NCBI GenBank assembly: GCA_013336275.1
Contig: JAAXUA010000001.1
Location: 270,167-334,166, forward strand
Direction: 5' to 3'
From: Candidatus Falkowbacteria bacterium
Lineage (GTDB): Bacteria; Patescibacteriota; Patescibacteriia; Patescibacteriales; GWE2-39-37
DNA length: 64,000 nucleotides
In this document: positions 1-14,397 of the stretch, piece by piece
Layout of the letters: each line of letters starts with the position of its first letter
Numbering within the stretch: the stretch's first letter is position 1
Program-made: the position numbers and the translations under genes
The notes under the pieces: generated by a model
The model's input: the letters and a program-made list of their open reading frames with translations, nothing else
Told to the model about the DNA's origin: nothing
Database searches by the model: none

Positions 1-1017
1 GGTTCAGGCCTATACGCTCTTTCCCCGTTCGCTGAAGGCGCACATTATGCCGGGGTGCGCAGCGGATATATAGTAATCCAAGTCGAACAGCACGGCGAGG
101 CTTGGTATGTCTTTCCGACCAACGGCCAGCGCTACTACCTGGGGCGCCCGGCTGACGCTTTCAAGGCGATGCGCTCGCTTGCTCTAGGGGTGCCTCACGG
201 CCTGATCGCTAACACGTCCGTATTCCCCGAGCGTTTTTCCGGCATGATACTTCTGGATGTCGAGAGCCATGGCGAGGCCTACTACATCTATCCTAAGAAC
301 CGTCAGAAATACTACCTGGGACGCCCGGATGATGCATTTCGTGTCATGCGAGAACTCGGCCAAGGAATCACCGACGCCGAACTGAAATACATTCCTGAGG
401 GCGAACTTGATAAGCCGATAATCCTACCGACTGGCAAGACTACTAATATCAAAGTCCCCTTCACTTCCCAGGCTCCATTCGGAGGCTGGTCGGACCAGCG
501 CCAGCAGGACGGTTGCGAGGAATCCTCCTCACTGATGGCCGTACGCTGGGCCACGGGCAAAGCATTGACGAAGGATGAAGCCTTGAAGGAGATTCTCGGC
601 TCATCGGACTATACCCTGAAAAAATACGGCGAATACCGTGACATCTCAGCCGCCGATACGGTTTCCTGGATCCTGAATGATTATTTCAAATACACCAAAG
701 TTGGGCTCAAGAAAAACATCACCGTTGATGACATAGTGGCCGAGCTCGACCGTGGCAATGTAGTGCTGACGCCGATGGATGGCCAAATGCTGCATAACCC
801 GAACTTTACCTCTCCGGGACCGCCCAGGCACATGCTTGTCATCCGCGGCTATGATCCTGAGCGGAAGGTCTTCATCACCAACGACCCTGGCACTCGCAAC
901 GGTGAAGGTTATGAGTACAGTGCCAAGGTCCTTTTCGAGTCCATCCGGGATTACCCGACCGGCTACCACGAACCGATAAGCAAGATCGAAAAGAATATGA
1001 TCGTCGTCTGGAAATAA
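1..1017 (+). CDS. C39-like (papain-fold) peptidase domain protein with two N-terminal tandem repeats; 5'-partial
   Basis: ORF track gives 55..1017, but the frame stays open to nt 1, so the gene probably starts left of the window. Repeats HGEAWYVFPTNGQRYYLGRPADAFKAMRSLALG / HGEAYYIYPKNRQKYYLGRPDDAFRVMRELGQG. C-terminal half has QAPFGGW..DGCEESS (candidate Cys) and HMLVIRGYD (candidate His), as in Peptidase_C39_2-type proteins. Confidence 0.55.
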   Translation, partial: GSGLYALSPFAEGAHYAGVRSGYIVIQVEQHGEAWYVFPTNGQRYYLGRPADAFKAMRSLALGVPHGLIANTSVFPERFSGMILLDVESHGEAYYIYPKNRQKYYLGRPDDAFRVMRELGQGITDAELKYIPEGELDKPIILPTGKTTNIKVPFTSQAPFGGWSDQRQQDGCEESSSLMAVRWATGKALTKDEALKEILGSSDYTLKKYGEYRDISAADTVSWILNDYFKYTKVGLKKNITVDDIVAELDRGNVVLTPMDGQMLHNPNFTSPGPPRHMLVIRGYDPERKVFITNDPGTRNGEGYEYSAKVLFESIRDYPTGYHEPISKIEKNMIVVWK

Positions 1018-1022
1018 CTATC

Positions 1023-1050
1023 AAAAAACCGGCCTATCAAGCCGGTTTTT
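1023..1050. terminator. Bidirectional rho-independent terminator between convergent genes
   Basis: AAAAAA-CCGGC-ctatcaa-GCCGG-TTTTT hairpin flanked by an A-run and a T-run. Confidence 0.7.
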
Positions 1051-1059
1051 CATATTGCA

Positions 1060-1716
1060 TCAATTGAATTTCTTCCAAACCCCTTCGGAAACCACCACGG
1101 TTCGCCCGCCATCCACCTTGATCGCCGACTGGTCATCAAGGGCGTAAAAAGTCTCGGGAAAATCCACCGCCAGTTTCTCCAGATTTTCCATATTCAGATT
1201 CGGGAAATATGGCGAATTCAGATGCGGTCGGACTAAAAGATCGACATAATCCAACCCTTCATCCTTGTCATATTCCCCCGGCACGTCATCATAAAGCTTT
1301 TCTGACATGCTCAAGTCAAGACTCTTACACGCCACCATACTGCCAGCGCTAATCCCGACATATACTCTAGTCTCAAGCAATTCTGGCAACAACGCCGACA
1401 AACCGGACTTTTGCAGCCAATACATCAGATGAAAGGTGTTGCCGCCGCCGAACAAAAAAACGTCGGCCGCTTCGAGACGAGGCTGCCAGATATCTTTCGG
1501 CAGCGCCGAGATGTCAACGATATCGATTGACTTGAAGCCAAGGTTCTTGCAGTTCACCAAGTCGTTGATCAGCCACCATTTGTCACCCGCTTCGACATTA
1601 GCGGCGGTCGGCACGAAAGCAAGATTCAGCTCAGCAAAAGGCCGTCCGGCCAAATCAACTAATGCTTCAGCGATGGACTTGTTCGACAGCCCGGCTGAGG
1701 TTAATAATAATTTCAT
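1060..1716 (-). CDS. Peptidase S51 family (dipeptidase E-like)
   Basis: 218 aa; MKLLLTSAG..., FGGGNTFHL and YVGISAGSMV (nucleophile Ser context) resemble PepE/S51. Confidence 0.6.
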   Translation of the reverse strand: MKLLLTSAGLSNKSIAEALVDLAGRPFAELNLAFVPTAANVEAGDKWWLINDLVNCKNLGFKSIDIVDISALPKDIWQPRLEAADVFLFGGGNTFHLMYWLQKSGLSALLPELLETRVYVGISAGSMVACKSLDLSMSEKLYDDVPGEYDKDEGLDYVDLLVRPHLNSPYFPNLNMENLEKLAVDFPETFYALDDQSAIKVDGGRTVVVSEGVWKKFN

Positions 1717-1725
1717 AAGTCTCGG

Positions 1726-2004
1726 TTATTTTTGAAAATTCTTTTGGCAATCGATAGCCTGCTTGATGCACTCCTCTGGGTCATAACCCAGGTCGTCGCA
1801 CCACCTTATCGTTGCAAAGATCATATTGCCCAATTCTTTCTTAAGCTCATCATCCGTGTGCGTATCTTGATCCTTGATGGCGTTGCGCTCCCAACGGCAG
1901 ATATCGCCAAAAACCTTGCCCATCCGGACGATAACCTGGCTGAGGCTCAGCTTCTGCTCGCCCCAGATATCACGGCTTTGTTCCAATAGATTTTTTATTT
2001 CCAT
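1726..2004 (-). CDS. Small MazG-like all-alpha NTP pyrophosphohydrolase
   Basis: 92 aa; helical with acidic motifs (ELKKELGNMIFATIRWCDDLGYDPEE) typical of single-domain MazG-type proteins; 1-nt gap to the next gene. Confidence 0.5.
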   Translation of the reverse strand: MEIKNLLEQSRDIWGEQKLSLSQVIVRMGKVFGDICRWERNAIKDQDTHTDDELKKELGNMIFATIRWCDDLGYDPEECIKQAIDCQKNFQK

Positions 2005-2005
2005 A

Positions 2006-2551
2006 TTATTTTATTTCATATTTCCAGCCGGGCTGCCAGGCTTTTCGTTTGCGCCAGTCATCCGCAAAGGCCTGATCCCAAGACATTCCCTTCAACAGCA
2101 CATCCAGGGCTAATTGCGGAGCTTTGTGCGCCACGATGGCCACGGACTTGCCGTCGTGATTCGTTTTCAAAAAATCAACAAATTCAGCGATCCGCTTCTT
2201 AACGTCTTCATAGCTCTCGCCGCCAGGAAACCGCCCCATAATGTTCAATTCTTGCATCGGCTCGACGATAGCTGACGGCTTGGCGTTGTATTCGCCGTAG
2301 TTGCATTCGCGCAGCCTGGCATCACTGACAATCTTGGCTGCGCCGCCAAAGGTCAGCTCGGCGGAGCGGACAGCTCGGACCAGATCCGAACAGAACACGA
2401 TATCGAAATGCTTATCCTTGACGATTTCTTTAAGGGCCAAAGACTGCTTGATGCCCAGCTCGGAAAGCTCGACATCGTACCAGCCGGAAGAGATTCCCTG
2501 TTCATTATCAGTTGTGGTCCCGTGGACGAAATAAGTTATGCTGACTGCCAT
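2006..2551 (-). CDS. Histidine phosphatase superfamily (PGAM-like) protein
   Basis: 181 aa; N-terminal ITYFVHGTTTDNE (RHG-type motif with V in place of R), LSELGIKQ, CSDLVRAVRSAE, IVAH. Confidence 0.55.
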   Translation of the reverse strand: MAVSITYFVHGTTTDNEQGISSGWYDVELSELGIKQSLALKEIVKDKHFDIVFCSDLVRAVRSAELTFGGAAKIVSDARLRECNYGEYNAKPSAIVEPMQELNIMGRFPGGESYEDVKKRIAEFVDFLKTNHDGKSVAIVAHKAPQLALDVLLKGMSWDQAFADDWRKRKAWQPGWKYEIK

Positions 2552-2569
2552 AAATAAATTTTACTTGAT

Positions 2570-3010
2570 TCAACTCTCGCGAACTGCCTTGATCCTGCTA
2601 TTGCTTTTCTGTTTTAAAAAATTACGGATGCCTTTTCCGGCCAAGGGCTCATCATCATATCTTGGCATTACGTGCAGGTGGACATGATGCGGCTCGATTT
2701 GCCCGCTGACTTTTCCCACATTCCAGCCTATCGTATAGCCGCTTGGCCCGTACTTCTCATCCAGGTATTTCCTAACCTCTTTCAACAAATTAAACATATC
2801 AAGAACTTCTTCATCTGACAAATCGAAAGGGGTGGCCTTGTGAGCGAACGGGATGATGACTCCAGCACCTTCCAAGACACCTTCTGGATTATATCCGTTG
2901 CTAGACAAAAAAATACATGTCGCATTTCGCATAACCTCTTCTTTTCCCAAAACTTTCTTGTCGCAAAACATGCACTCCATATTTGCTGGTGTTAGTTTTA
3001 TAATTCCCAA
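2570..3010 (-). CDS. HIT-family nucleotide hydrolase/transferase
   Basis: Histidine triad EPHHVHLHVMPR near the C-terminus. An alternative start at MECMFCDKK (nt 2980) is possible. Confidence 0.8.
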   Translation of the reverse strand: MGIIKLTPANMECMFCDKKVLGKEEVMRNATCIFLSSNGYNPEGVLEGAGVIIPFAHKATPFDLSDEEVLDMFNLLKEVRKYLDEKYGPSGYTIGWNVGKVSGQIEPHHVHLHVMPRYDDEPLAGKGIRNFLKQKSNSRIKAVRES

Positions 3011-3017
3011 AATCGTT

Positions 3018-3695
3018 CTATTTGAACTCTTTAATCACCTTGGCGATTACCGCTTGGACTTCCTTGTCGGCCACGTACTTATAGCTGAACCTTCGCTTCA
3101 GCAGCTCGGTGGCATTGCCATACGTCCTCGTGAGCAGCTTCAAAGCATGGTACAGCTCGACTTCTCCCTGCTTATCCTTGGCGTGGCGCTGAAAGCCGCG
3201 GATCAGGTCATAAACGACATGGGCTTCGCAGACCGGCAAATACTTGCCTTCATTAATAGGAGCATAAGCCGTGATTGTTTTTTTATCTTTCAACACGGCA
3301 CCGACGAAGCGGTGCATGCCATCGAGGACCCTGTACATCCCGCTTTCATCCGGCCCTCGCAGCAATATCGGTTCACTTCCGAATGATGCTTCAGTTTCGA
3401 ACTTTTTCCTGACAACCGCATTCTTTGCCATCAAATCGCTAAACTTCTCGACAGATTTATCGCACCGTTCGAGCAATATCTTATTCCACCCAGGGTTGGT
3501 TCCGGTAAAAAGAATCTTCTCCACAGGCAGCTTAATCTTCCTATATTTGATCTTAGGATTTGCCAAGTAATCGCCGATCCAATTCAAACCCACCCCGGCA
3601 TTGACCAGGATCCGACCGCGTGGATCAAGCTGCTTCTTGCTCTTAGACTCTTCGTGAGCGGCTAAATCGCTCAAATACTTTTCAAATTTATTCAT
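3018..3695 (-). CDS. Hypothetical protein with ParB/sulfiredoxin-fold-like motif
   Basis: 225 aa; ILLRGPDESGMYRVLDGMHRFVGAVL resembles the ParB N-terminal (DGxHR) core. No DNA-binding HTH recognised. Confidence 0.35.
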   Translation of the reverse strand: MNKFEKYLSDLAAHEESKSKKQLDPRGRILVNAGVGLNWIGDYLANPKIKYRKIKLPVEKILFTGTNPGWNKILLERCDKSVEKFSDLMAKNAVVRKKFETEASFGSEPILLRGPDESGMYRVLDGMHRFVGAVLKDKKTITAYAPINEGKYLPVCEAHVVYDLIRGFQRHAKDKQGEVELYHALKLLTRTYGNATELLKRRFSYKYVADKEVQAVIAKVIKEFK

Positions 3696-3699
3696 AATT

Positions 3700-4140
3700 T
3701 CACAATCCTATCTCGCTATAATGAACCCCCATGCGGATATCATCTAATGCCTGTTTAACTTCGGGCAAAACATTTTTCGGAAGATTATCCAAAGGGTACC
3801 AGGCCAATTCGTCGCACTTCTCCGGCTCCATGTTCTTGACTTCCCCGCTCCATTTGCTGGCCGTGAGGTAAATATCAAAATATTCCCGGTCCGATGAGAT
3901 GCGATGCATGACATGCGAGACTTCAAGGTCGACCGATTCCAGCACGATTCCAGCCTCTTCTGCCGCTTCACGGATGATGCATTGCGAGGCCGTCTCTCCG
4001 CCGTCGAGATGTCCGGCCACCAAGCTGTAATTGCCGTCTTGGTACCCGGTGTTATAGCGCCGCAAAAGCAAAACCTGGCCATCTTTGACCAAAACCAGAT
4101 AGGCCGCGACATAGGCCCTGAATCGTTCTTTGTGTGACAT
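3700..4140 (-). CDS. Nudix hydrolase
   Basis: Nudix box GHLDGGETASQCIIREAAEEAGI. Confidence 0.85.
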   Translation of the reverse strand: MSHKERFRAYVAAYLVLVKDGQVLLLRRYNTGYQDGNYSLVAGHLDGGETASQCIIREAAEEAGIVLESVDLEVSHVMHRISSDREYFDIYLTASKWSGEVKNMEPEKCDELAWYPLDNLPKNVLPEVKQALDDIRMGVHYSEIGL

Positions 4141-4145
4141 AAGAA

Positions 4146-4571
4146 TTACTTACCTCGCTCATTAATAAAGGCTTCGATATCTTCAAGCATGCTCTGCTTG
4201 GTAACCATCTCCCGTGCTTCTTCCGGCGTCACCCACCTCCAGTCCGAATGCTCTTCAGATATCCTGATATCATCGGTATTCGTCTTGCACCAATACATTA
4301 TTCCGACCAACTCATTTTCAGCGATCCTCTCGCCTCTAAAGATGTGAAAAATCGAAATCGGTTTTATGATTTCAATATCTGCTCCGGTCTCTTCCATGAC
4401 TTCGCGCCTCAAGCCGACCTCCGGCTCCTCGAATTGGTGAAGGCGCCCCGTGACATATTCCCAGATTCCAGGAGAAAAGTCCTTTTCATCACTTCGCTTG
4501 AGCAACAATATCTTGCCAGTAGCCGCATTCTCGATTATCGCCCCAGTGGCGACCAAAAATCTTCCATTCAT
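4146..4571 (-). CDS. Nudix hydrolase
   Basis: Nudix box GRLHQFEEPEVGLRREVMEETGA. The start ATG overlaps the upstream gene's stop codon (ATGA at 4568..4571). Confidence 0.85.
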   Translation of the reverse strand: MNGRFLVATGAIIENAATGKILLLKRSDEKDFSPGIWEYVTGRLHQFEEPEVGLRREVMEETGADIEIIKPISIFHIFRGERIAENELVGIMYWCKTNTDDIRISEEHSDWRWVTPEEAREMVTKQSMLEDIEAFINERGK

Positions 4572-5191
4572 AATTCAGTAGATAAGGGTTTATCAAAGTA
4601 AAAGTCCGACTCGCTGTTTTCATTGATTCCGTCCAAAAAATAGGCCAGCTTGAATCTTGTTTTACCGCCCCAGATGATATTTTCCAAGCGGCAGCAGCCA
4701 AAATATGACAAAGTTTCGAAGGTAAAATTCTTCGGTACCCTGATCACTATATTCGATGTGATATAGCGCTTGGTCAAATCGAACATCGCCTTCATGCTCG
4801 GCTGCGTGTCTTCTATATTATCAACGTGGAGGGATTTTTTTTCGCCGGCAACGCTCCAATCCGGGTCAAGTATAGCAACCTCTGCCGAAATGTTCTTCAG
4901 CAAGTTTTCATCAAGCACATCGCCGACTATGAATTCTATCTTGTCGGCAACACCGTACAGTTCGGCGTTATATTTGGCATCCTTGATTCTATCGGGACTG
5001 ATATCCACTCCGATCACTTTTTCCATGCGGCGAGCCAGCGGTATCACTGCCATGCCGACAGCACAGCACAGTTCGACCGCCGAATTGAAGCGTGACAGCT
5101 GATTGGCGATATGCTCGCCGACGACTTCGGGGCAGCTCATGTAATACGCATCCTCATCAGCCTGGATAGCCTTTAAAAACTTCTGTTCCAT
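4568..5191 (-). CDS. SAM-dependent methyltransferase, TGS1 / RNA cap guanine-N2 methyltransferase-like (Methyltransf_15-like)
   Basis: ELCCAVGMAVIPLARRMEKVIGVDISPDRIKDAKYNAELYGVADKIEFIVGDVL...AEVAILDPDW matches the remembered pattern xDxFxGxGG..ViaiDidp...A..NA.vYGV.d.IefI.GD....DvvflSPPW. Confidence 0.55.
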   Translation of the reverse strand: MEQKFLKAIQADEDAYYMSCPEVVGEHIANQLSRFNSAVELCCAVGMAVIPLARRMEKVIGVDISPDRIKDAKYNAELYGVADKIEFIVGDVLDENLLKNISAEVAILDPDWSVAGEKKSLHVDNIEDTQPSMKAMFDLTKRYITSNIVIRVPKNFTFETLSYFGCCRLENIIWGGKTRFKLAYFLDGINENSESDFYFDKPLSTEL

Positions 5192-5198
5192 AGTTTCA

Positions 5199-5537
5199 TC
5201 ACTCTACCACTCTTTCCAGGATTATTCTTTGTCCGAATCCTCCCCGCTCCTCTGCCTTTTTACGACGCACAGCCTCAAGACTTGATAAGTCGACGTTTTT
5301 CAAAACGCATATCGCATGCAAGACTTCCAAAATGTCAGCGGCTTCTTCTGCCGAGGGGTTTTCCAAAAACTCAGCCACCTCTTCGTGCAGCTTTCTCTCA
5401 AGCGCCTCGCCATATTCCCCAGCGGCGGCAATATGGGTGATCGGCAGCTTACCTTTTGCCTTGATGATTTCCGGAATCTTGTCCCTGACTAATTTATCGT
5501 ATTCCATGCTAATTGATTTTTTTAGTATCGTTTTCAT
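5199..5537 (-). CDS. PRA-PH-like / MazG-superfamily house-cleaning NTP pyrophosphohydrolase
   Basis: 112 aa; YDKLVRDKIPEII...KLHEEVAEFLE...EEAADILEVLHAI...RRKKAEERGGF. AGGAG lies 10 nt upstream. Confidence 0.6.
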   Translation of the reverse strand: MKTILKKSISMEYDKLVRDKIPEIIKAKGKLPITHIAAAGEYGEALERKLHEEVAEFLENPSAEEAADILEVLHAICVLKNVDLSSLEAVRRKKAEERGGFGQRIILERVVE

Positions 5538-5541
5538 AAAA

Positions 5542-5775
5542 TCAGTCTCCTACCGGCTTGAATCTCAAGATTTCCTTGCCGTCAATCACGACTGTTTCAA
5601 GAAACATTTTCATCGGCCGAACCCACAGTGAATTATCACCGAATTTTTCGTGCTCATACAGCGCCCTGTAGACCACCAATTCCTCAAGGGTTTCGCTATG
5701 ATGCGCCACGCCAATGACTTCGTAATAGTTCCCTTTGTAGTGTTGGTACTTTCCTAATTTCATAAAATTGCCCAC
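5542..5775 (-). CDS. DUF1653-like small protein
   Basis: YQHYKGNYYEVIGVAHHSETLEELVVYRALY...LWVRPMKMF. GTG start at 5775, or ATG (MKLGKY) at 5763. Confidence 0.55.
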   Translation of the reverse strand: MGNFMKLGKYQHYKGNYYEVIGVAHHSETLEELVVYRALYEHEKFGDNSLWVRPMKMFLETVVIDGKEILRFKPVGD

Positions 5776-5778
5776 GAA

Positions 5779-6228
5779 TTATCTTTGACCCAACAATTCA
5801 ATCGCCTCCAGAGCCAGCGGTTTTACATTCGCCGGAGCGTCTTCAATCGTCCTTATCTCATCCGCCGTAAACCATTTCAGCTTGGACGTTTCTCCATCTT
5901 GCGGGTTGAGTGCGTCCGTCTGAGAAGTGGCGTAATATATGAAATCGATATGCTGGTGGAATTGGTTGATATCCTCGAGCAAGAGATGCGCCGGACGGAT
6001 CAGCTGCATCACGTCGCCCATCTCTATTTGCGGATCAGGAGAATATAGCTCAACATCCAAGCCCGTCTCTTCCCTCACCTCCCTCAGGGCTGCCGCCTGG
6101 GGCAGCTCGTCCCGGTCGATATGGCCTCCGACCGGAATCCAGAAACATAGCTTTTTGTGGTGATGCAGGAGCACCTTGTCCTTGTGCACGATAAAGGTGG
6201 TAGCGGTAAAATGCTTGGTAATTTCCAT
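5779..6228 (-). CDS. Nudix hydrolase
   Basis: Nudix box GGHIDRDELPQAAALREVREETGL. Confidence 0.85.
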   Translation of the reverse strand: MEITKHFTATTFIVHKDKVLLHHHKKLCFWIPVGGHIDRDELPQAAALREVREETGLDVELYSPDPQIEMGDVMQLIRPAHLLLEDINQFHQHIDFIYYATSQTDALNPQDGETSKLKWFTADEIRTIEDAPANVKPLALEAIELLGQR

Positions 6229-6278
6229 ATTGGCGTTTTACTTGATAAACGAAAACTTTGGAAAACGGCTATCTGTTT

Positions 6279-6653
6279 TCACAGATAGCCCTGCTGACGG
6301 AGGTGGGCGACGATCTTGATTAAGGCGTCGCTGAGATTGTAAGTCTCGGGCTGGTCGGTCCATTCTGCCGCATTGATTTCGGCCTTAGGAAAGACCTTAC
6401 CGCTGCCGTCGGCCATATAGACCTGAGCGGCAAAAGTGTAACCCTTATAAGGCGCTGTGCCGATGAACTCCCCAAGAAAGACCGGCGGCTCCATTTCGAG
6501 TCCTGAAAGCTCCTCGCCCAATTCCCGCATGAGGCAATCAAGGTCAGCCTCGCCGTCCTCAGGTTTGCCGCCCGGCAAAATCCAGAACTCGCCCTTGCGC
6601 ACCAACAGGATACGCCCTTGATCGATAACCACTACACAGATGACTCTTCTCAT
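6279..6653 (-). CDS. Nudix hydrolase (first gene of the 12-gene operon)
   Basis: Nudix box PGGKPEDGEADLDCLMRELGEELSG. Start moved to MRRVICVV (ATG 6651..6653) because GGAGG (6662..6666) lies 8 nt upstream; the ORF track extends to 6680. Confidence 0.8.
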   Translation of the reverse strand: MRRVICVVVIDQGRILLVRKGEFWILPGGKPEDGEADLDCLMRELGEELSGLEMEPPVFLGEFIGTAPYKGYTFAAQVYMADGSGKVFPKAEINAAEWTDQPETYNLSDALIKIVAHLRQQGYL

Positions 6654-6734
6654 GCCTCCAACCTCCATTGATAAGATCATCTCCTTTCCAAAATATTCGT
6701 TAATAGGTGCAAATTACAACTAAATAATACTTAA

Positions 6735-7160
6735 TTATTTTCTGTACAAATATAACATTAATCCATAAATAAACACTGAAGAGACAACCATAATAATGCC
6801 CATGTATATTTTTCCATCAAAGAAAAAGTTTATAGCAAAACCCACACCAACTGCGGATGCAAAAAATTTTATTAGCTCAGGTAAAAAAATAGTTTTTAAC
6901 CTATAATCCATTAGGTTATTTTTCTTTTCGAGTTCGTGATTAGTGCTTCGAAGCTTTTCCAACTCATTTTGACTTTGTTTGAGGGATTTCTTAAGTGAAG
7001 CAACCTCATCCTTTAGATTGCCATTTTCAGCAAATAAAATTTTGCCCACTCCAGAATTGCACAGTTCCTTATCTTTGAGCTGTGAAATTGGCTTATTGTT
7101 TTTTTTCTTACGAGTGTTCACTTTTTTATAAATAGTTCTCGTGGCTCCATGTCTGACCAC
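6735..7160 (-). CDS. Hypothetical coiled-coil protein with C-terminal transmembrane segments
   Basis: 141 aa; Lys-rich N-terminus, coiled coil (LKDEVASLKKSLKQSQNELEKLRSTNHELEKK), hydrophobic tail FFASAVGVGFAINFFF...IIMVVSSVFIYGLMLYLY. AT-rich codons. Start uncertain (overlaps the upstream gene by 43 nt). Confidence 0.4.
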   Translation of the reverse strand: MVRHGATRTIYKKVNTRKKKNNKPISQLKDKELCNSGVGKILFAENGNLKDEVASLKKSLKQSQNELEKLRSTNHELEKKNNLMDYRLKTIFLPELIKFFASAVGVGFAINFFFDGKIYMGIIMVVSSVFIYGLMLYLYRK

Positions 7161-7492
7161 CCATATCTCTTAAACGGTTTAAACGGTTTAAACTGCTTAA
7201 AGGGTCTAAATGGTTCATGCTCGACAAACATTGGGAATGGCTTAAATTGTTTGAATGGTAAAAAAGGCCTTGGCGCATCTGTTGGATGCTTGCCAAAGCC
7301 AACACAGTTACCACCATGATCCCTCATTATACCATTTTCAAACCAGCCAACATGTTGCCCAGAGTAATTATATAGATTTGTCCCATCAAGAAAACCAATG
7401 CTTTTGCCATCAAAGCCAACCAGCCTTCCATTGTCAAGAAGTCTTATACCTGGCTTTCCATATCGATTGTATATTACATCGATTTCTTTCAT
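7118..7492 (-). CDS. 4-fold beta-flower-like protein with FKPF-repeat tail
   Basis: Repeated G-x-x-[IV]G-[FW] beta-hairpin units (GRLVGFDGKSIGFLDGTNLYNYSGQHVGWFENGIMRDHGGNCVGF), then PFKQFKPFPMF...PFRPFKQFKPFKPFK. Confidence 0.45.
   Translation of the reverse strand: MKEIDVIYNRYGKPGIRLLDNGRLVGFDGKSIGFLDGTNLYNYSGQHVGWFENGIMRDHGGNCVGFGKHPTDAPRPFLPFKQFKPFPMFVEHEPFRPFKQFKPFKPFKRYGWSDMEPRELFIKK
7170..7214. repeat. Five tandem 9-nt units (TTAAACGGT-like) inside a CDS
   Basis: ttaaacggt ttaaacggt ttaaactgc ttaaagggt ctaaatggt; encodes the FKPF/FKQF peptide repeat on the minus strand. Confidence 0.8.
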
Positions 7493-7575
7493 ATATTTAT
7501 ATTACCTATTTGGCAATTATTACGGATTTCACATTTCATTGTCACGAATATCACTTGATTCATTTACCGCTCGAT

Positions 7576-9069
7576 TTATTTCAACTTCACAGCTCCAGCC
7601 CTGATCCTATCAATCGCCTTTTCCTTACCTAGAGCCTCGGCTACTTCGAATGGTCCTGGGCTTTTATCCCGGCCGGTCATGGCGACGCGTGCCGGCCAGA
7701 GGACCTCGCCGACGGTGATCATAGCGCTTCGGATATGGTTCATCAGTGCCTCTTCGATAGTGAACCTGGTCCATTCGGTTTCGGGGATGCGCTCAAGGAC
7801 ATCAGCTGCTGCCTCGAGATTCTTCTTGGTGGTTTCGGCGTCGCTCTTCTTCCAGACCAAAAGCGAACCTTCATATTTCAGTTTCGGCTGGAATAAGTAG
7901 TCGGTGAGGTCATTGATTTCTGATAATTTCTTCAAACGGTCATGAGCCAAGCCGACGAACAGCTCAAGCTGCTGGCGGCTGACTTTTTCTCCCGTCAAAT
8001 TATTGAGCCACTGCCCGTCTTGGACATCAAGCAACTTACCCTCGACCAAGTACGGCAAGACCAGGTCAACGAGCTCATGCACCGTCTTCTGGCGGATGTA
8101 ATGGCCATTGATATAATCCAGCTTCTCGGTATCGAAGATCGCCGGGCTGGTGCCGATATCTTTGATCTTGAATTCGCTGATGATCTGGTCCAAGGGCATG
8201 ATTTCCGTATCGCTCTTCGAATGCCAGCCCAGAAGGGCGCAAAAATTGAGCAGCGCCTCCGGCAAGTACCCCTTCGTTCGGTAATCCTCGACCGCAACGT
8301 CGCCATGGCGTTTGGAGAGCTTGCCGCCCTCCTTATTCAAGACCAGCGGGATGTGGACGAACTTGGGCGGTTCCCAGCCGAAGTTCCGATAGAGTAAAAC
8401 GTTCTTAGGAAAGGATGAAAGCCATTCGTCGCCGCGCACCACGTGGCTGATCTCCATCAGGTGGTCGTCGACCACGTTGGCGAATTGGTAGGTCGGCATC
8501 CCGTCAGTCTTGATGAGCACATGGTCCTCCAGATTCTCCGCCTTGAAGGTGATGTCTCCGCGCAACTCATCAAAAGCCGTGACCTCGCCCTCGAGCGGCA
8601 TGGCTTGGCGAATGGTGAAGGCGTCTCCTCGAGCGACGCGAGCCTCGACTTCTTCCGAGGACAGGTTGCGGCACCGGCGGTCGTAGCGCGGCGGCAGCTT
8701 GTTAGCCATCTGTTCCTCCTTCATGGCCGCGATCTCCTCGGACGAGCAGAAACAGCGGTAGGCGTGGCCGCTCTCCAGAATCTCCGCGGCGTACCGGTCA
8801 TAGATATCGCGGCGCTGGCTCTGGACATAGGGTCCGAACGGTCCGCCGGAAAGCGGGCTCTCGTCGAAATGGATATCGAGCCAGGCCAGAATCTCGACCA
8901 GGTGCTCGGCGGCACCAGCCACCTCGCGTTTCTGGTCGGTATCCTCGATGCGCAGAATGAAAGTGCCCTCCAGTGCTTTGACGATGAGGTAGTTGAATAA
9001 GACAGTGCGCAGGCTGCCGATATGCAGGAAACCGGTCGGCGATGGCGCGAAACGGACGCGAGTACTCAT
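7576..9069 (-). CDS. gltX: Glutamate--tRNA ligase
   Basis: 497 aa; RFAPSPTGFLHIGSLRT (HIGH motif), KLSKRHG (KMSKS motif), overall GluRS architecture. Confidence 0.95.
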   Translation of the reverse strand: MSTRVRFAPSPTGFLHIGSLRTVLFNYLIVKALEGTFILRIEDTDQKREVAGAAEHLVEILAWLDIHFDESPLSGGPFGPYVQSQRRDIYDRYAAEILESGHAYRCFCSSEEIAAMKEEQMANKLPPRYDRRCRNLSSEEVEARVARGDAFTIRQAMPLEGEVTAFDELRGDITFKAENLEDHVLIKTDGMPTYQFANVVDDHLMEISHVVRGDEWLSSFPKNVLLYRNFGWEPPKFVHIPLVLNKEGGKLSKRHGDVAVEDYRTKGYLPEALLNFCALLGWHSKSDTEIMPLDQIISEFKIKDIGTSPAIFDTEKLDYINGHYIRQKTVHELVDLVLPYLVEGKLLDVQDGQWLNNLTGEKVSRQQLELFVGLAHDRLKKLSEINDLTDYLFQPKLKYEGSLLVWKKSDAETTKKNLEAAADVLERIPETEWTRFTIEEALMNHIRSAMITVGEVLWPARVAMTGRDKSPGPFEVAEALGKEKAIDRIRAGAVKLK

Positions 9070-9071
9070 GG

Positions 9072-9272
9072 CTATTTGTTTAAGATATTAATGATGTATG
9101 GGAAAAGGAAAAACGCCAACGCGAGAGACAAGACCAAAAGCGTGAAGCTCAAGCCGATGACCCAGCGCTGCAGGCGCCAGACCTTCTCTGCCAGCTTTTC
9201 CCGATCCTTTTTCAAAAGCTGGTTGGTGATGTCGTTCAGGAGATAGATGTATTTTTTGAATTGGAGTTTCAT
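9072..9272 (-). CDS. Small single-pass membrane protein (66 aa)
   Basis: MKLQFKK...WVIGLSFTLLVLSLALAFFLFPYIINILNK. Its ATG overlaps the upstream stop (ATGA at 9269..9272). The 99-aa ORF in the track is an upstream extension into the neighbouring gene. Confidence 0.5.
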   Translation of the reverse strand: MKLQFKKYIYLLNDITNQLLKKDREKLAEKVWRLQRWVIGLSFTLLVLSLALAFFLFPYIINILNK

Positions 9273-10486
9273 ATTTGTTTCAAATATTCGTTGAATTTGT
9301 CCAAGAAAACTTGCGTCGATTTGCGGCGGACATGGTGGACGGTCGCGACCAGACGATCGGTGTCCACCCACTGCCAGAAATCATGGTCCCAATAGTTCAG
9401 CTTGATTTCGGCATCGTCGCCCAAAAACTCGATGACGGCCAAAGACTGCTTCTGCCCTTTGTAGCCCGAGTCGCGGGTGACTTGGTGCTTGCCGAGCGCA
9501 CCGTTGAAATCGTAGCGCCAGACATCCTTAAAGACGGCTTTGACCTCGAACTTGTCCGTGCCCAACTCCTCGGTCGCCTCTCTCAGGCCGGCATCCTTCG
9601 GGTCTTCCCCGTCGGTACCTCCCTGGGGCAGCTGCCAATGAGGCTCGGCCGAATAGGAACGACGCACGACTAATACCTGATACCGTTCGTTTTGACGCCG
9701 ATAAATCAGACAGGCGACATTAGGTCGGTAAAGCCGAGGGCGGATGAACTGCCAGACCAGAAAGCGCCACATGAAGACGAAAACGGCTCGCCAGATCCGC
9801 TGATAGCGCCGGAAAACGACTTGGCCCTGAGCATTGGACGGTTTCTGAAAAAGCCGCCAAGACCACTCGAGCCCCAAAAGCCGCATCAGCTTCGGCGCCC
9901 GTTTTACTTTGCCCGAAATGAAATCAAGTGCGCCGCCGATGCCGACGGCCAGACGCAAGCCAGGCACCTTCTCTAAATTATGAAATACGAATTTCTCTTG
10001 ATAAGGTGCGCCAAGGGTGACTAGCATGATCGATGGCGCTCCGACTAAAGATGGCGAGAAGTCGCGGCCGAAACGGTCGACGGCCTGCACCGAAACCTTC
10101 AAACGCGGGTAGCGCGCCTTGAGTGCGGTTTCAATGTCGGTGGCGCTAGACAAGCCTTCGCGCCAATTGACGACTAGCACTGACAACTGCCGCTCCTCAG
10201 CCATGGCAAGGAGGTCAGGCACCAGGTCGGCACCAGTGACCCTGGGCGCATTGACGCCCTTGAGCCAGCCAGCAGCCTTCAGTCCCATTCCGTCCATCAG
10301 AGACAGGTCGGCTTTGTTCAATATATGGAACAGCTCTTCATCATGATTGGCGGCCAAAACGATCTCGGGATTGGGCGTGACCAGGAAACGGGGCCTATCG
10401 CCAGCCAAAAAAGCTTCGACGCGCTTGAGCGCCCCGGCTCGATCAATGATGGACAGCTTGATTCCTAAAATATTTACCTGGTTCAT
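9269..10486 (-). CDS. Fusion protein: WecG/TagA/CpsF-family glycosyltransferase (N) + RppH-like Nudix hydrolase (C)
   Basis: N-terminal region VNILGIKLS...FLVTPNPEIVLAA...LSLMDGMGL...LEWSWRLFQKP is WecG/TagA-like. C-terminal region WQLPQGGTDGEDPKDAGLREATEELG is a Nudix box resembling the RppH motif WQFPQGG...RELxEExG. Confidence 0.7.
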   Translation of the reverse strand: MNQVNILGIKLSIIDRAGALKRVEAFLAGDRPRFLVTPNPEIVLAANHDEELFHILNKADLSLMDGMGLKAAGWLKGVNAPRVTGADLVPDLLAMAEERQLSVLVVNWREGLSSATDIETALKARYPRLKVSVQAVDRFGRDFSPSLVGAPSIMLVTLGAPYQEKFVFHNLEKVPGLRLAVGIGGALDFISGKVKRAPKLMRLLGLEWSWRLFQKPSNAQGQVVFRRYQRIWRAVFVFMWRFLVWQFIRPRLYRPNVACLIYRRQNERYQVLVVRRSYSAEPHWQLPQGGTDGEDPKDAGLREATEELGTDKFEVKAVFKDVWRYDFNGALGKHQVTRDSGYKGQKQSLAVIEFLGDDAEIKLNYWDHDFWQWVDTDRLVATVHHVRRKSTQVFLDKFNEYLKQI

Positions 10487-10628
10487 AATATCATGATTAT
10501 ATCCTAACTTGAGCCAAAAAACAAGACTTAATATTGACTAATCCGGCAAAATATGTTTAAATTTCCAATTATAAACGCCCTTTATCACAACCGCTTCAGC
10601 GGATAAACCCACCCAAGGAGGCCCGAGA

Positions 10629-11615
10629 ATGCCAAAGTATGTAAAAGCCCACGGAATCAGCCTGGACAAAGACAGTATCCTGATGTTCGGCGTACTCAAT
10701 CAGAATGGCAATGCCATGCTGCTGGATGGAGTACTCGAATTCCAACCCGTAACCGAAAAAGGAGTCAGCATCACCGCTTACCGCAAACTGGACGAAAACA
10801 GCCACTTCTTCGATGGCCATTTCCCCGGTAAACCGGTCTGTCCTGGCCACTACCTGCTCCAGATGGCCTATCTGACTGCCCAGCTGTTCCATTTCTGCCT
10901 TACCGGCAAAACGAGCTTCACCCCCTGGCACATCAGAGCAAAAGAGCTTACCAACCGTGCCCCAGCGCTTCCGGGAGATACGATGTACATCACCTGTATC
11001 GAACCGGAGATGGATGATGAGACCTTCGCTTGCTCTGCCGTAATCAAAAACCAGAATGGCACGCTCATAGCCTCGGTCGACAATCTGTGCTTTTTCACTA
11101 AGCCTTTCGACCCCGCTACGGTCACCCTATCCGAAGAAAAACCAGGCATCAATCAGGAAATCTTTCAGCTCAACGGCCTGGAACTGGACTACCAGAACAT
11201 CATCGCGCACTCGCTGCTCCCCCACCGTGGTCATGCCCTGCTGGTCGACGGCGTCACCTCTTTCAGGAAAACCAGCCACGACGCGATCATTACCTCGACC
11301 TACAACCTGATGGACAAAGGCATCTTCTTCTCCGGGTACAAGTTCTGCCAAGGACACTACATGCTTGAGATGGCTTATCTGACCGCCGCCCTCTTCCATT
11401 ACTGCCTTACCGGCGAAACCAAGGGCGCCCCGGCCCCCTTCCGCACCACCGAAATCGCCTTCCTGCGGCCCGCCCTTCCCGGCGAAACCCTGAAAACGAT
11501 CTGTTGCGCCCCCGAGCTTCGCAGCCGCACCTTCAGCTGTTCAGCAACGGTAACCGACAGCGACAACCGGCCCATCGCCAATTTCGGCCGCATCAACGGG
11601 ATATCCCTGAAGTAA
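10629..11615 (+). CDS. Tandem double-hotdog FabZ/FabA-like dehydratase-fold protein
   Basis: Two homologous halves. Half 1: FFDGHFPGKPVCPGHYLLQMAYLTAQLFHFCLTG. Half 2: LPHRGHALLVD...FFSGYKFCQGHYMLEMAYLTAALFHYCLTG. AAGGAGG at 10615..10621. Confidence 0.7.
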   Translation: MPKYVKAHGISLDKDSILMFGVLNQNGNAMLLDGVLEFQPVTEKGVSITAYRKLDENSHFFDGHFPGKPVCPGHYLLQMAYLTAQLFHFCLTGKTSFTPWHIRAKELTNRAPALPGDTMYITCIEPEMDDETFACSAVIKNQNGTLIASVDNLCFFTKPFDPATVTLSEEKPGINQEIFQLNGLELDYQNIIAHSLLPHRGHALLVDGVTSFRKTSHDAIITSTYNLMDKGIFFSGYKFCQGHYMLEMAYLTAALFHYCLTGETKGAPAPFRTTEIAFLRPALPGETLKTICCAPELRSRTFSCSATVTDSDNRPIANFGRINGISLK

Positions 11616-11634
11616 TCGCTCACTCATTGAATTT

Positions 11635-11668
11635 AAGGCGCCTAGTCCGACTAGGCGCCTTACTTTTA
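11635..11668 (+). terminator. Rho-independent terminator after the double-hotdog gene
   Basis: AAGGCGCCTAGTC-cga-CTAGGCGCCTT followed by ACTTTTAT. Confidence 0.7.
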
Positions 11669-11680
11669 TCTTAATCATTC

Positions 11681-11709
11681 TTGACAATAATAAGAGTATC
11701 TCATATAGT
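11681..11709 (+). promoter_or_regulatory. Sigma70-type promoter of clpB
   Basis: TTGACA (11681..11686) - 17 nt - TATAGT (11704..11709). Confidence 0.7.
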
Positions 11710-11713
11710 TAAT

Positions 11714-11740: not shown

Positions 11741-11760
11741 CTACAAATAAAAGCAATAAT

Positions 11761-14397
<2,637 letters not shown>

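What the first reader, a model, noticed from the sequence alone, without database searches (positions are those of the whole stretch)
4146..5191. TGS1-like cap guanine-N2 methyltransferase homolog translationally coupled (ATGA) to a Nudix hydrolase
The 207-aa methyltransferase carries NAELYGVADKIEFIVGDVL...VAILDPDW. This recalls the eukaryotic/archaeal TGS1 (Methyltransf_15) signature more than ordinary bacterial rRNA or tRNA methyltransferases. Its stop codon overlaps the start of the next Nudix gene (ATGA at 4568..4571), which suggests stoichiometric co-expression. A guanine-N2 methyltransferase paired with a decapping-type hydrolase in a bacterium would be unusual.
Basis: partly seen in the sequence, partly recalled or inferred. 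Interest (0 to 1): 0.6.

Follow-up and report, generated by a model that had tools for sequence, protein, structure and literature searches.

The report
Bacterial TGS1-like methyltransferase beside a Nudix gene
A candidate-phylum bacterium really does encode a small enzyme whose closest characterised relative is the eukaryotic RNA-cap hypermethylase TGS1. Its overlap with a Nudix hydrolase gene is not conserved in relatives, and its substrate pocket is altered, so a cap-methylation/decapping pair is not supported.

Summary
On the minus strand, a 207-aa methyltransferase (4568..5191) and a 141-aa Nudix hydrolase (4146..4571) overlap by ATGA.

The TGS1 homology is real:
- Pfam's best hit is Methyltransf_15 (48.9 bits; cut-off 22).
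- The best solved-structure match by sequence is human TGS1 (E 2e-20).
- The AlphaFold model (pLDDT 92) superposes on human TGS1 (TM 0.79, 33-34% identity), well ahead of any rRNA or tRNA methyltransferase.

The functional reading fails:
- In 42 related loci a Nudix gene abuts the methyltransferase in only 3. That is no more often than elsewhere in the same loci (Fisher p 0.33).
- Those Nudix genes are not orthologues of one another.
- The two closest relatives lack the pairing.
- 4-bp overlaps occur at 5 of 51 same-strand junctions in this window.
- The Nudix is a generic MutT-like enzyme, not a recognisable decapping type.

The methyltransferase belongs to a rare, acidic prokaryotic clade (CPR bacteria, DPANN archaea, some Clostridia). 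It keeps the AdoMet site and the stacking Trp, but several TGS1 cap-contact residues are replaced or missing (DP[D/E]W for SPPW; Ser671→Met; Phe804→Arg; the Lys646 segment is absent).

The most likely function is N-methylation of a nucleotide-like substrate that is not a canonical m7G cap. The gene sits in a 14-gene operon rich in small hydrolases.

The parts
4568..5191 (-). 207-aa TGS1-family (Pfam Methyltransf_15) SAM-dependent N-methyltransferase of the prokaryotic DP[D/E]W clade
   Evidence: ORF. PF09445 48.9 bits. Human TGS1 E 2e-20. AF2 pLDDT 92.3 and Foldseek TM 0.79 to 3gdh. Clade signature.
4146..4571 (-). 141-aa minimal MutT-like Nudix hydrolase ('Nudix B') with an intact Nudix box
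   Evidence: PF00293 66 bits. Best solved relatives are a MutT-related protein, NudI, NudG/CTP pyrophosphohydrolase and Ap4A hydrolases. All NCBIfam hits are far below their cut-offs.
4568..4571 (-). ATGA stop/start overlap between the methyltransferase and Nudix B
   Evidence: Sequence. 5 of 51 same-strand junctions in the window have the same 4-bp overlap.
3700..4140 (-). 146-aa Nudix hydrolase ('Nudix A'), 5 bp downstream of Nudix B
   Evidence: PF00293 67.9 bits.
5199..5537 (-). 112-aa protein of unassigned family, immediately upstream of the methyltransferase (7-bp gap)
   Evidence: No significant Pfam, NCBIfam or PDB match.
5542..5775 (-). DUF1653 protein (77 aa)
   Evidence: PF07866 97.8 bits.
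5779..6228 (-). 149-aa Nudix hydrolase ('Nudix C')
   Evidence: PF00293 64.6 bits.
6279..6680 (-). 133-aa Nudix hydrolase ('Nudix D')
   Evidence: PF00293 48.2 bits.
3018..3695 (-). 225-aa protein of unknown family, conserved (69% identity) in the related island of L001
   Evidence: No family hit. L001 homologue.
2570..3010 (-). HIT-family protein (146 aa)
   Evidence: PF01230 35.7 bits.
2006..2551 (-). Histidine phosphatase, branch 1 (181 aa). This family is the most recurrent neighbour of the methyltransferase in other genomes.
   Evidence: PF00300 105.5 bits. 9 of 89 neighbours within two genes in 25 loci. Positions.
1726..2004 (-). 92-aa protein, possibly MazG-like (not confirmed)
   Evidence: Only E 0.2 to E. 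coli MazG. Pairwise E 0.001 to the weak-MazG neighbour of P0053.
1060..1716 (-). Peptidase S51 (218 aa), last gene of the co-directional array
   Evidence: PF03575 93.4 bits.
7516..7545 (-). Promoter-like site upstream of the first gene of the array (consensus match only)
   Evidence: 10 of 12 hexamer matches.
1022..1052 (-). Intrinsic-terminator-like hairpin (14 pairs plus a T run) just after the last gene of the array

Best explanation
The 207-aa protein is a stand-alone SAM-dependent methyltransferase of the TGS1 (Methyltransf_15) family. It belongs to a rare, horizontally scattered prokaryotic clade found in CPR bacteria, DPANN archaea and some Clostridia and Erysipelotrichaceae.

Shown:
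- It has the TGS1 fold.
- It has counterparts of the AdoMet-contacting acidic residues and of the conserved, probably structural, Asn: E40, D63, N75 and D91, matching human D696, D719, N731 and D747.
- It keeps the catalytic-motif Asp and first Pro (D109, P110) and the base-stacking Trp (W112).

Inferred: it binds a planar, probably purine, base on W112 and methylates an exocyclic amine, with D109 and the P110 carbonyl activating the nitrogen as in TGS1 and Tgs2.

The acceptor is probably not a canonical m7GpppN cap. The clade has replaced Ser671 with Met, Thr673 with Cys/Val/Asn, Pro765 with Asp/Glu and Phe804 with Arg. It lacks the N-terminal segment carrying Lys646, and it has gained a conserved His122.

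Three features make a free nucleotide or a 5'-terminal nucleotide-like substrate more likely than a site inside rRNA or tRNA: the protein is acidic, it has no RNA-binding module, and it recurs next to small nucleotide or phosphoester hydrolases.

The ATGA overlap with the Nudix gene reflects tight packing in a roughly 6.5-kb, 14-gene co-directional array that is rich in small hydrolases. It does not mark a dedicated two-protein system.
For: TGS1-family membership:
- Searches place the protein in the TGS1 family.
- A profile search of 1.84 billion representatives finds only 36 clusters at E<=1e-30.
- The next tier includes many long proteins matched at their C-terminal ends over profile positions 4-190. 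The one checked (P0092) is from a choanoflagellate, and the shorter members of this tier that I aligned carry the eukaryote-type SPPWGG signature.

Active site:
- The residue map comes from the HMMER alignment to 3gdh, the structure and mutagenesis papers and a 72-sequence signature table.

Substrate type:
- Family pI has a median of 5.3; the window protein has pI 4.77 and net charge -10.

Pairing not conserved:
- A Nudix gene is adjacent in 3 of 42 loci (78 neighbour slots), against 6 of 270 other ORFs in the same loci (Fisher p 0.33).
- The adjacent Nudix proteins are only 26-33% identical to one another, no closer than paralogues within the window.
- L001 shares 69-88% identical island genes, and L029 carries a 72% identical methyltransferase. 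Both have other neighbours.

Neighbourhood theme:
- His_Phos_1 occurs 9 times and HAD 4 times among the 89 neighbours within two genes.
- Other neighbours are CYTH and a phosphoribosyltransferase, weak MazG plus an HD YfbR-like protein, AdSS/IMPDH/CTP synthase and a 2H phosphoesterase.

Operon:
- Anatomy and overlap frequency.
Against: - No biochemical data exist for any member of this clade, so substrate and product are inferred.
- Neighbour associations are anecdotal and confounded by relatedness; most His_Phos_1 cases come from related Clostridia MAGs.
- Three further independent Nudix adjacencies exist (L015, L032, L042), and in L015 and L032 the stop and start codons also overlap. A loose functional link to Nudix enzymes therefore cannot be excluded.
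- A TGS1-fold enzyme (TK2045) methylates 16S rRNA, so an RNA-internal target remains possible.
- The residue map rests on sequence alignment; I could not superpose coordinates.
Confidence: 0.6

Rival explanations
1. Functional methyltransferase-Nudix module. The enzyme N2-methylates a guanine-containing 5' cap-like structure or nucleotide. The translationally coupled Nudix hydrolyses the same substrate class, either decapping or clearing the methylated nucleotide.
For: - The ATGA overlap has no separate Shine-Dalgarno sequence.
- A Nudix gene also abuts the methyltransferase in L015, L032 and L042, in both orders.
- Nudix B has weak similarity to Ap4A hydrolases and to Bdellovibrio 'probable pyrophosphohydrolase' 3ees.
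- E. coli RNA carries methylated NpnN caps, including m7Gp4Gm, and the paper names no enzyme that adds these methyl groups (PMC7044304).
Against: - Adjacency occurs in only 3 of 42 loci and is not enriched over background (p 0.33).
- The four adjacent Nudix proteins are mutually 26-33% identical, so they are not orthologues.
- The closest relatives lack the pairing.
- RppH models score 18-19 bits against cut-offs of 116-118.
- The window has five Nudix domains within 7 kb, so chance adjacency is likely.
- 4-bp overlaps are common in this window.
Confidence: 0.12
2. Site-specific rRNA or tRNA base methyltransferase (m2G, m6A or m4C type). It would be analogous to RsmD/RsmC/TrmN6, or to the TGS1-fold archaeal 16S m4,2C synthase TK2045.
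For: - TK2045 is a precedent for a TGS1-like fold acting on rRNA.
- The next-best structural neighbours are TrmM and METTL5.
- Some loci lie near translation genes: IF3-L35-L20 and RNase J in L029, and an aminoacyl-tRNA synthetase in L034.
Against: - The distribution is very rare and patchy: 47 homologues among 5.8 billion clusters and 36 representative clusters at E<=1e-30. That is unlike a housekeeping modification enzyme.
- The protein is acidic and has no RNA-binding or THUMP/PUA-type domain.
- No NCBIfam rRNA or tRNA methyltransferase model approaches its cut-off.
- TK2045 (8vyd) matches only at E 0.52.
- The gene sits in a lower-GC accessory array.
Confidence: 0.2
3. Orphan DNA amino-methyltransferase (N6-A or N4-C) of a restriction-modification or defence system.
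For: - It has a (D/N/S)PP(Y/F/W)-like motif IV.
- Partial PADLOC match to mad2 (47 bits, core region only) and a PHROG 'DNA methyltransferase' match (30 bits).
Against: - Those matches cover only the Rossmann core (residues 38-141).
- At 207 aa the protein has no target-recognition domain.
- Its full length, including the N-terminal helices and C-terminal strands, aligns to TGS1.
- No restriction or defence partner genes lie nearby.
Confidence: 0.03

Closest known systems
Human TGS1 methyltransferase domain (PDB 3GDH/3EGI), the eukaryotic m7G-cap guanine-N2 dimethyltransferase
   Same: - It is the best sequence and structure match: E 2e-20, 33-34% identity, TM 0.79.
- The alignment begins in the second half of the N-terminal extension (query residue 4 = R657) and runs to the C-terminal strands.
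- Conserved counterparts: D696/E40, D719/D63, N731/N75, D747/D91, P764/P110, W766/W112, P806/P153, R807/K154.
   Different: - No large N-terminal region. The protein starts at about hTGS1 residue 654, so the Lys646/Tyr647/Trp648 part of the extension is absent. In human TGS1 a 653-853 fragment was inactive.
- SPPWGG becomes DP(D/E)W(S/A).
- Ser671→Met (Met in most of the prokaryotic TGS-like proteins compared, invariant in the window's close family), Thr673→Cys/Val/Asn, Asn704→variable, Tyr771 not conserved, Phe804→Arg (Arg in most, sometimes Lys or another residue).
- A new conserved His122.
- The host is a bacterium, whose transcripts lack m7G caps (PMC4615557).
Giardia Tgs2 and mimivirus Tgs (short, DPPW-type guanine-N2 monomethyltransferases)
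   Same: Small stand-alone enzymes with Asp rather than Ser at the first position of motif IV and an essential Trp.
   Different: - In Tgs2, Phe18, Thr40 (a hydroxyl is required; T40V gives <1% activity), Asp76, Pro142 and Tyr148 are important.
- Here the counterparts of Thr40 (Cys/Val/Asn), Asp76 (variable), Pro142 (Asp/Glu) and Tyr148 (not conserved) are changed.
- The Phe18 counterpart falls at the extreme N-terminus (about residue 2), outside the aligned region, and cannot be placed.
Thermococcus kodakarensis TK2045, 16S rRNA m4,2C918 synthase (PDB 8VYD)
   Same: A prokaryotic enzyme whose catalytic domain resembles TGS1 and has a D-P-P-x motif. It shows that a TGS1-like fold in prokaryotes need not mean cap methylation.
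   Different: - Only a marginal sequence match (E 0.52).
- TK2045 has an extra N-terminal domain and a DPPR motif with no stacking Trp.
- The window protein is far closer to TGS1 itself.
Bacterial rRNA guanine-N2 methyltransferases RsmD/RsmC and RlmI-type enzymes
   Same: Rossmann-fold amino-methyltransferases with an NPPY-like motif IV. They have been described as related to the Tgs family.
   Different: Not the best hits. PH1915 (which I take from memory to be RlmI-like) scores E 1e-6 over 73 residues. No NCBIfam rRNA or tRNA methyltransferase model reached E<=0.01 with a score anywhere near its cut-off.

Membership tests
TGS1 / Pfam Methyltransf_15 (PF09445) | Scores above the curated Pfam gathering threshold, and better than other methyltransferase models | tested here: met
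   48.9 bits against a cut-off of 22; the next family scores 32.7 bits.
TGS1 / Pfam Methyltransf_15 (PF09445) | TGS1 fold over the whole domain, including N-terminal helices and the C-terminal beta-hairpin | tested here: met
   AF2 pLDDT 92.3. Foldseek 3gdh TM 0.79, rmsd 2.2-2.7 Å over 189-194 columns; the next protein in the E-value order has TM 0.61 and no other non-TGS1 hit in the top 50 exceeds 0.66.
TGS1 / Pfam Methyltransf_15 (PF09445) | AdoMet-binding acidic residues and the conserved Asn (hTGS1 D696, D719, N731, D747) | tested here: met
   E40, D63, N75 (invariant) and D91.
TGS1 / Pfam Methyltransf_15 (PF09445) | Base-stacking Trp of motif IV (hTGS1 W766, Tgs2 W143) | tested here: met
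   W112 is invariant in 22 family members and is Trp in 69 of the 72 aligned sequences.
Cap m7G guanine-N2 methyltransferase (functional TGS1/Tgs2 type) | Motif IV is S/D-P-P-W-G-G | tested here: not met
   The motif is D-P-D-W-S-V. The second Pro is Asp or Glu in nearly all close family members, and GG is absent. Tgs2 P142A keeps 7% activity.
Cap m7G guanine-N2 methyltransferase (functional TGS1/Tgs2 type) | Cap triphosphate contacts Lys646, Tyr771 and Arg807, and a complete N-terminal extension | tested here: not met
   The protein begins at about hTGS1 residue 654, so the Lys646 segment is absent. The Tyr771 position is variable. Only Arg807 has a conservative counterpart, K154.
Cap m7G guanine-N2 methyltransferase (functional TGS1/Tgs2 type) | Pocket residues Ser671 and Thr673 (hydroxyl essential in Tgs2 Thr40), and Phe804 (hydrophobic pocket for the first methyl group) | tested here: not met
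   M18 (invariant in the close family), C20 (Cys/Val/Asn) and R151 (nearly invariant in the close family) (roles).
Cap m7G guanine-N2 methyltransferase (functional TGS1/Tgs2 type) | m7G-dependent methyl transfer to guanine N2 of m7GTP, m7GDP or m7GpppN | not testable with these tools
   Needs an enzyme assay.
   The best NCBIfam hit, RlmD, scores 39.6 bits against a cut-off of 183.55. PH1915 scores E 1e-6, against TGS1 at 2e-20.
Decapping-type Nudix (RppH / NudC / Dcp2) for the partner gene | Match to RppH or other decapping-specific models, or decapping enzymes as the closest solved relatives | tested here: not met
   RppH models score 18-19 bits against cut-offs of 116-118. The top solved relatives are a MutT-related protein, NudI and NudG; Ap4A hydrolases and 3ees are weaker hits. 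The generic Nudix box is intact (my reading of the translation).
Conserved methyltransferase-Nudix gene pair | Adjacency to an orthologous Nudix gene is conserved in related genomes | tested here: not met
   3 of 42 loci, Fisher p 0.33. The Nudix neighbours are 26-33% identical to each other. The pairing is absent in L001 and L029.

The most novel reading that the evidence does not exclude
The DP[D/E]W clade could be a prokaryotic 5'-end or nucleotide 'cap-like' methyltransferase. It would N-methylate the guanine (or another purine) of a non-canonical cap or its precursor. Candidate substrates are dinucleoside polyphosphates or m7G-containing nucleotides of the kind found as methylated NpnN caps in E. 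coli; the paper reporting them names no methylating enzyme. Alongside the Nudix, HIT and histidine-phosphatase genes of the operon, which may also include MazG-like genes (unconfirmed), it would tune RNA 5'-end stability or clear modified nucleotides. The clade would then also represent the prokaryotic stock from which eukaryotic TGS1 arose.
Probability: 0.1. Interest if true: 0.8.

Novelty: new variant of a known kind. Interest (0 to 1): 0.35.

Why it matters
TGS1 is regarded as a eukaryotic (and giant-virus) enzyme tied to m7G caps, which bacteria and archaea lack.

This analysis finds a small, uncharacterised prokaryotic clade whose nearest relatives outside the prokaryotic TGS-like group are eukaryotic TGS1 proteins. 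The clade has a systematically altered acceptor pocket. That gives a concrete handle on two questions:
- Which prokaryotic enzyme lineage did cap hypermethylation evolve from?
- Do reduced-genome symbionts (CPR, DPANN) methylate nucleotides or non-canonical RNA 5' ends?

The result also guards against an annotation error. Some databases already label these proteins 'trimethylguanosine synthase', and that function should not be propagated. The specific claim that drew attention, a methyltransferase/decapping pair, does not hold up, so the practical importance is moderate.

Tried and rejected
1. Conserved pairing. I tested it in 25 genome loci, 17 metagenome loci and six contig look-ups. I used tblastn, phmmer, a Nudix HMM and Pfam. 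The pairing was rejected.
2. Orthology of the four adjacent Nudix genes. Rejected: they are 26-33% identical to each other.
3. Defence-system membership. PADLOC hits (mad2, PDC-S07, ThsC) and PHROG hits are generic domain matches with no system context.
4. DNA methyltransferase reading. Rejected: there is no target-recognition domain and the full length aligns to TGS1.
5. My memory-based guess that the 112-aa (5199..5537) and 92-aa (1726..2004) ORFs are MazG-like NTP pyrophosphatases. Not confirmed: PDB hits are only E 0.2-0.3, and there is one weak pairwise match to a weak-MazG neighbour in L049.
6. Genomic-island boundaries. There are no tRNA genes in window 1-16000 or in L028. An integrase gene lies beyond the window's left edge in L028. 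GC is lower across about 1-8 kb. The question was left open.
7. Literature on prokaryotic TGS1 homologues. None was found. The Mouaikel et al. 2003 paper is not held.
8. Coordinate superposition.
9. A first bootstrap script timed out and a second crashed. The rerun is.
Full report
**1. Observation**

The minus strand carries a 207-aa ORF at 4568..5191 and a 141-aa ORF at 4146..4571. The + strand reads tcat at 4568-4571. On the coding strand this is ...GAA TTA TGA overlapping ATG AAT GGA, an ATGA stop/start overlap. The quoted peptide is present. An identical protein is annotated in a Candidatus Falkowbacteria assembly (P0001), and an identical gene order is seen on an independent Logan contig (L028).

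The overlap itself is unremarkable. A simple gene call on the window gives 68 genes at 94% coding density. Of 51 same-strand junctions, 5 overlap by exactly 4 bp and 32 overlap or lie within 20 bp.

**2. What the methyltransferase is**

Several independent lines place it in the TGS1 family.
- Pfam's best model is Methyltransf_15, 'RNA cap guanine-N2 methyltransferase' (48.9 bits, cut-off 22). Generic SAM-methyltransferase models follow at 32.7 bits or less.
- No NCBIfam model for a bacterial rRNA, tRNA or protein methyltransferase approaches its cut-off.
- Against all PDB sequences the best hits are the two human TGS1 catalytic-domain constructs (E 2e-20, query residues 4-189). The next hit is PH1915 at E 1e-6 over 73 residues.
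- An AlphaFold2 model built on 22 family members is confident (pLDDT 92.3, pTM 0.89).
- Foldseek's top six PDB hits are all human TGS1 chains (TM 0.70-0.79, 33-35% identity). TrmM comes next in the E-value order at TM 0.61 and 14% identity, and no other non-TGS1 protein in the top 50 exceeds TM 0.66.

The homology claim stands.

**3. How big and how close the family is**

- The word-indexed search of 5.8 billion clusters returned only 47 homologues at 47-100% identity. Most are from Patescibacteria-type metagenome contigs, and one is labelled Woesearchaeota.
- The exhaustive profile search of 1.84 billion representatives found 36 clusters at E<=1e-30 and 1,154 at E<=1e-10.
- Directly below the short (about 200-aa) prokaryotic proteins come long (400-1,100 aa) proteins matched at their C-terminal ends over profile positions 4-190. 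One of them, P0092, is from the choanoflagellate Codosiga, and the shorter members of this tier that I aligned carry the eukaryote-type SPPWGG signature. I take this tier to be eukaryotic TGS1.
- In a crude neighbour-joining tree of 72 sequences the eukaryote-type sequences form one clade (50 of 50 bootstraps). That clade sits among several diverse groups of short prokaryotic TGS-like proteins, and the deeper branching is unresolved.
- Genome-collection hits put the window's subgroup in CPR bacteria, DPANN archaea (Aenigmatarchaeota, Woesearchaeota), gut Clostridia MAGs and Erysipelotrichaceae/'Tenericutes' MAGs. This is a patchy, accessory-gene distribution.

**4. Active-site comparison**

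I used the HMMER alignment to 3gdh (chain index + 612 = hTGS1 numbering, checked on SPPW 763-766). Residue roles come from Monecke et al. 2009 (PMC2709555) and Hausmann et al. 2007 (PMC1865056).

| hTGS1 residue | Window clade | Status |
|---|---|---|
| D696 | E40 | retained |
| D719 | D63 | retained |
| N731 | N75 (invariant) | retained |
| D747 | D91 | retained |
| S763 | D109 (invariant; Asp as in Giardia Tgs2 and mimivirus Tgs) | retained |
| P764 | P110 (invariant) | retained |
| W766 | W112 (invariant) | retained |
| P806 | P153 | retained |
| R807 | K154 | conservative change |
| P765 | Asp/Glu | changed |
| G767-G768 | Ser/Ala-x | changed |
| S671 | Met (invariant in the close family) | changed |
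| T673 | Cys/Val/Asn (Tgs2 T40V is dead) | changed |
| N704 | variable | changed |
| Y771 | not conserved | changed |
| F804 | Arg (nearly invariant in the close family) | changed |
| K646/Y647/W648 | absent (protein starts at about residue 654) | missing |

F804 forms the hydrophobic pocket for the first methyl group. K646/Y647/W648 belong to the half of the N-terminal extension that is missing here, and a human 653-853 fragment is inactive.

The 72-sequence table shows that these are clade signatures:

| Element | Eukaryote type | Prokaryotic group |
|---|---|---|
| N-terminal segment | E-x-W-[YF]-S-V-T-P-E | D-x-[YLF]-[YF]-M-S-x-P-E |
| Motif IV | SPPWGGP | DP[DE]W[SA] |
| After motif IV | no counterpart | conserved His122 |
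| Late motif | [FYL]-x-P-R-N | R-x-P-K |

The chemistry, amine methylation of a base stacked on Trp, is probably retained. The determinants that read an m7G-triphosphate cap are largely not. Bacterial and archaeal transcripts lack m7G caps (PMC4615557).

TK2045 is a documented prokaryotic enzyme with a TGS1-like catalytic domain, and it methylates 16S rRNA C918 (PMC11551388). Fold alone therefore does not dictate the substrate.

**5. The Nudix partner**

Nudix B has a canonical Nudix box (my reading of the translation) and matches Pfam NUDIX at 66 bits. Its best NCBIfam hits are NudG, NudB and NudI, all far below their cut-offs. The RppH models score 18-19 bits against cut-offs of 116-118. Its best solved relatives are an archaeal MutT-related protein, NudI and CTP pyrophosphohydrolase. 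Ap4A hydrolases and 3ees follow more weakly. It is a minimal MutT-like Nudix of unassigned specificity. 'Decapping-type' is not supported, although it is not excluded either.

**6. Is the pairing conserved?**

I examined the following loci, with ORFs called uniformly:
- 25 loci from species-representative genomes
- 17 metagenome loci
- contigs for P0001, P0007, P0027, P0053, P0018 and P0035

Window proteins were searched by tblastn and phmmer. A Nudix HMM and Pfam were also used.

The closest relatives do not show the pairing:
- L001 carries a 72.5% identical methyltransferase and the same island genes (Peptidase S51 88%, Nudix D 86%, histidine phosphatase 74%, the 225-aa unknown 69%). There the methyltransferase lies between a 134-aa and a 78-aa protein; neither was detected as a Nudix, and the 134-aa one has no Pfam hit.
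- P0007 (72% identical) lies between a solute-binding protein and a glycosyltransferase.
- P0027 (Magasanikbacteria) lies between a 2H phosphoesterase and a Fic protein.

A Nudix gene abuts the methyltransferase in only three other loci: L015 (upstream), L032 (upstream) and L042 (downstream). That is 3 of 78 neighbour slots in 42 loci, against 6 of 270 other ORFs in the same loci (Fisher one-sided p 0.33). The four adjacent Nudix proteins are 26-33% identical to each other.

**7. What surrounds the methyltransferase**

In the window it is gene 7 of 14 co-directional small genes. A promoter-like site lies at 7545-7516 and a strong terminator-like hairpin at 1052-1022. The genes in order are:

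| Order | Gene |
|---|---|
| 1 | Bflower protein |
| 2 | coiled-coil/TM protein |
| 3 | Nudix D |
| 4 | Nudix C |
| 5 | DUF1653 |
| 6 | 112-aa unknown |
| 7 | methyltransferase |
| 8 | Nudix B |
| 9 | Nudix A |
| 10 | 225-aa unknown |
| 11 | HIT |
| 12 | histidine phosphatase |
| 13 | 92-aa unknown |
| 14 | Peptidase S51 |

 GC is 0.44-0.48 across this array, against 0.51-0.58 beyond 8 kb.

Across other genomes the most recurrent neighbour is His_Phos_1. It accounts for 9 of 89 proteins within two genes. It is directly downstream in several Clostridia loci and one gene upstream in L001, but most of these loci are related to one another.

Other neighbours:
- HAD hydrolases, 4 cases
- MFS transporters, 9 of the 89 neighbours
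- CYTH and a phosphoribosyltransferase
- a weak MazG hit plus an HD YfbR-like protein
- AdSS/IMPDH/CTP synthase
- an APH-type kinase

The family is acidic (median pI 5.3; window protein 4.77, net charge -10) and has no accessory domain.

I read this as weak but consistent support for a nucleotide-level substrate. The Nudix adjacency in the window follows from sitting in a Nudix-rich, tightly packed operon.

**8. Mechanism, marked by strength**

- Shown: TGS1-family fold, a retained AdoMet site, and the D-P-x-W catalytic loop with the stacking Trp.
- Inferred: SN2 methyl transfer to an exocyclic amine of a stacked purine, activated by D109 and the P110 carbonyl.
- Inferred, weaker: the acceptor is a free or 5'-terminal nucleotide that is not a canonical m7GpppN. 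Arg151 replaces the hydrophobic methyl pocket, which suggests a single methylation or a differently shaped or charged acceptor.
- Not supported: obligatory partnership with Nudix B.
- Speculative: E. coli RNA carries methylated NpnN caps such as m7Gp4Gm, and methylation protects them from RppH (PMC7044304). That paper names no methylating enzyme. This keeps a cap-like reading alive at low probability.

**9. Novelty and score**

The family is already inside Pfam PF09445, and some members are auto-annotated 'trimethylguanosine synthase'. I found no paper that characterises or discusses prokaryotic members.

The clade-specific pocket changes, and its position next to eukaryotic TGS1, make it a new variant of a known kind. 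The headline claim, a methyltransferase/decapping pair, is not supported. Interest: 0.35.

Noticed in passing
window 1022-7545 (minus strand): About 6.5 kb of 14 tightly packed co-directional small genes, with four Nudix paralogues, HIT, a histidine phosphatase, DUF1653, Peptidase S51, a Bflower protein and three unknowns. A promoter-like site and a strong terminator-like hairpin bound the array. GC is 0.44-0.48 against 0.51-0.58 in the flanks. An integrase gene lies just beyond the window's left edge in L028. This may be an accessory island for nucleotide house-cleaning.
   Followed up: partly
window 2006-2551; L001 5029-5574; L003 2850-3407; L010 6696-7289; L020 6655-6951; L025 1152-1688; L035 5937-6503: A branch-1 histidine phosphatase is the most recurrent neighbour of the TGS-like methyltransferase. 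It is adjacent or within a few genes in CPR, Clostridia and 'Tenericutes' loci. Independence of these cases was not established, because many of the Clostridia MAGs are related.
   Followed up: partly
window 9269-10486 (minus strand): A 405-aa protein fuses a WecG/TagA/CpsF-family glycosyltransferase domain (residues 59-218) to a C-terminal Nudix domain (253-389). This is an unusual architecture and the fifth Nudix domain within about 7 kb.
   Followed up: no
window 10629-11615 (plus strand): A 328-aa protein that looks like a tandem duplication of a FabA-like hot-dog domain. Pfam detects the first copy, and the second half repeats the 'GHY(L/M)L(Q/E)MAYLTA' segment.
   Followed up: no
window 6735-7160 and 7118-7492 (minus strand): A 4-fold beta-flower (Bflower) protein overlaps by 43 bp a 141-aa protein that has a coiled-coil segment and a hydrophobic C-terminus. 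The start codon of the downstream ORF may be mis-set.
   Followed up: no
L041 958-1503; L049 4650-4937 and 8961-9428; L050 6940-10606; L043 348-875: Other members of the TGS-like family sit next to a CYTH (triphosphate tunnel) protein, a small weak-MazG protein plus an HD YfbR-like nucleotidase, purine and pyrimidine biosynthesis genes (AdSS, IMPDH, CTP synthase), or a phosphoribosyltransferase. The theme is nucleotide metabolism, but the evidence is anecdotal.
   Followed up: partly
L001 (CAYUCS010000001.1, 772 kb contig): The record is titled 'uncultured Gammaproteobacteria bacterium'. Its island genes are 69-88% identical to those of this Falkowbacteria-labelled window, and a single contig of 772 kb is typical of a CPR genome. 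The title is probably a taxonomic mislabel.
   Followed up: no
P0087-P0123 and hTGS1 versus P0053-P0121: Eukaryote-type TGS1 sequences form one well-supported clade set among several diverse groups of short prokaryotic TGS-like proteins with variant motif IV (DPDW, DPEW, DVEW, DIPYW, DPAF). This suggests a wider uncharacterised prokaryotic radiation from which TGS1 may derive.
   Followed up: partly
L005 5032-6000 and L033 3032-4000: In two archaeal-type loci a 322-aa APH/choline-kinase-like phosphotransferase ends exactly where the TGS-like gene starts. This is another tight junction with a small-molecule kinase.
   Followed up: no
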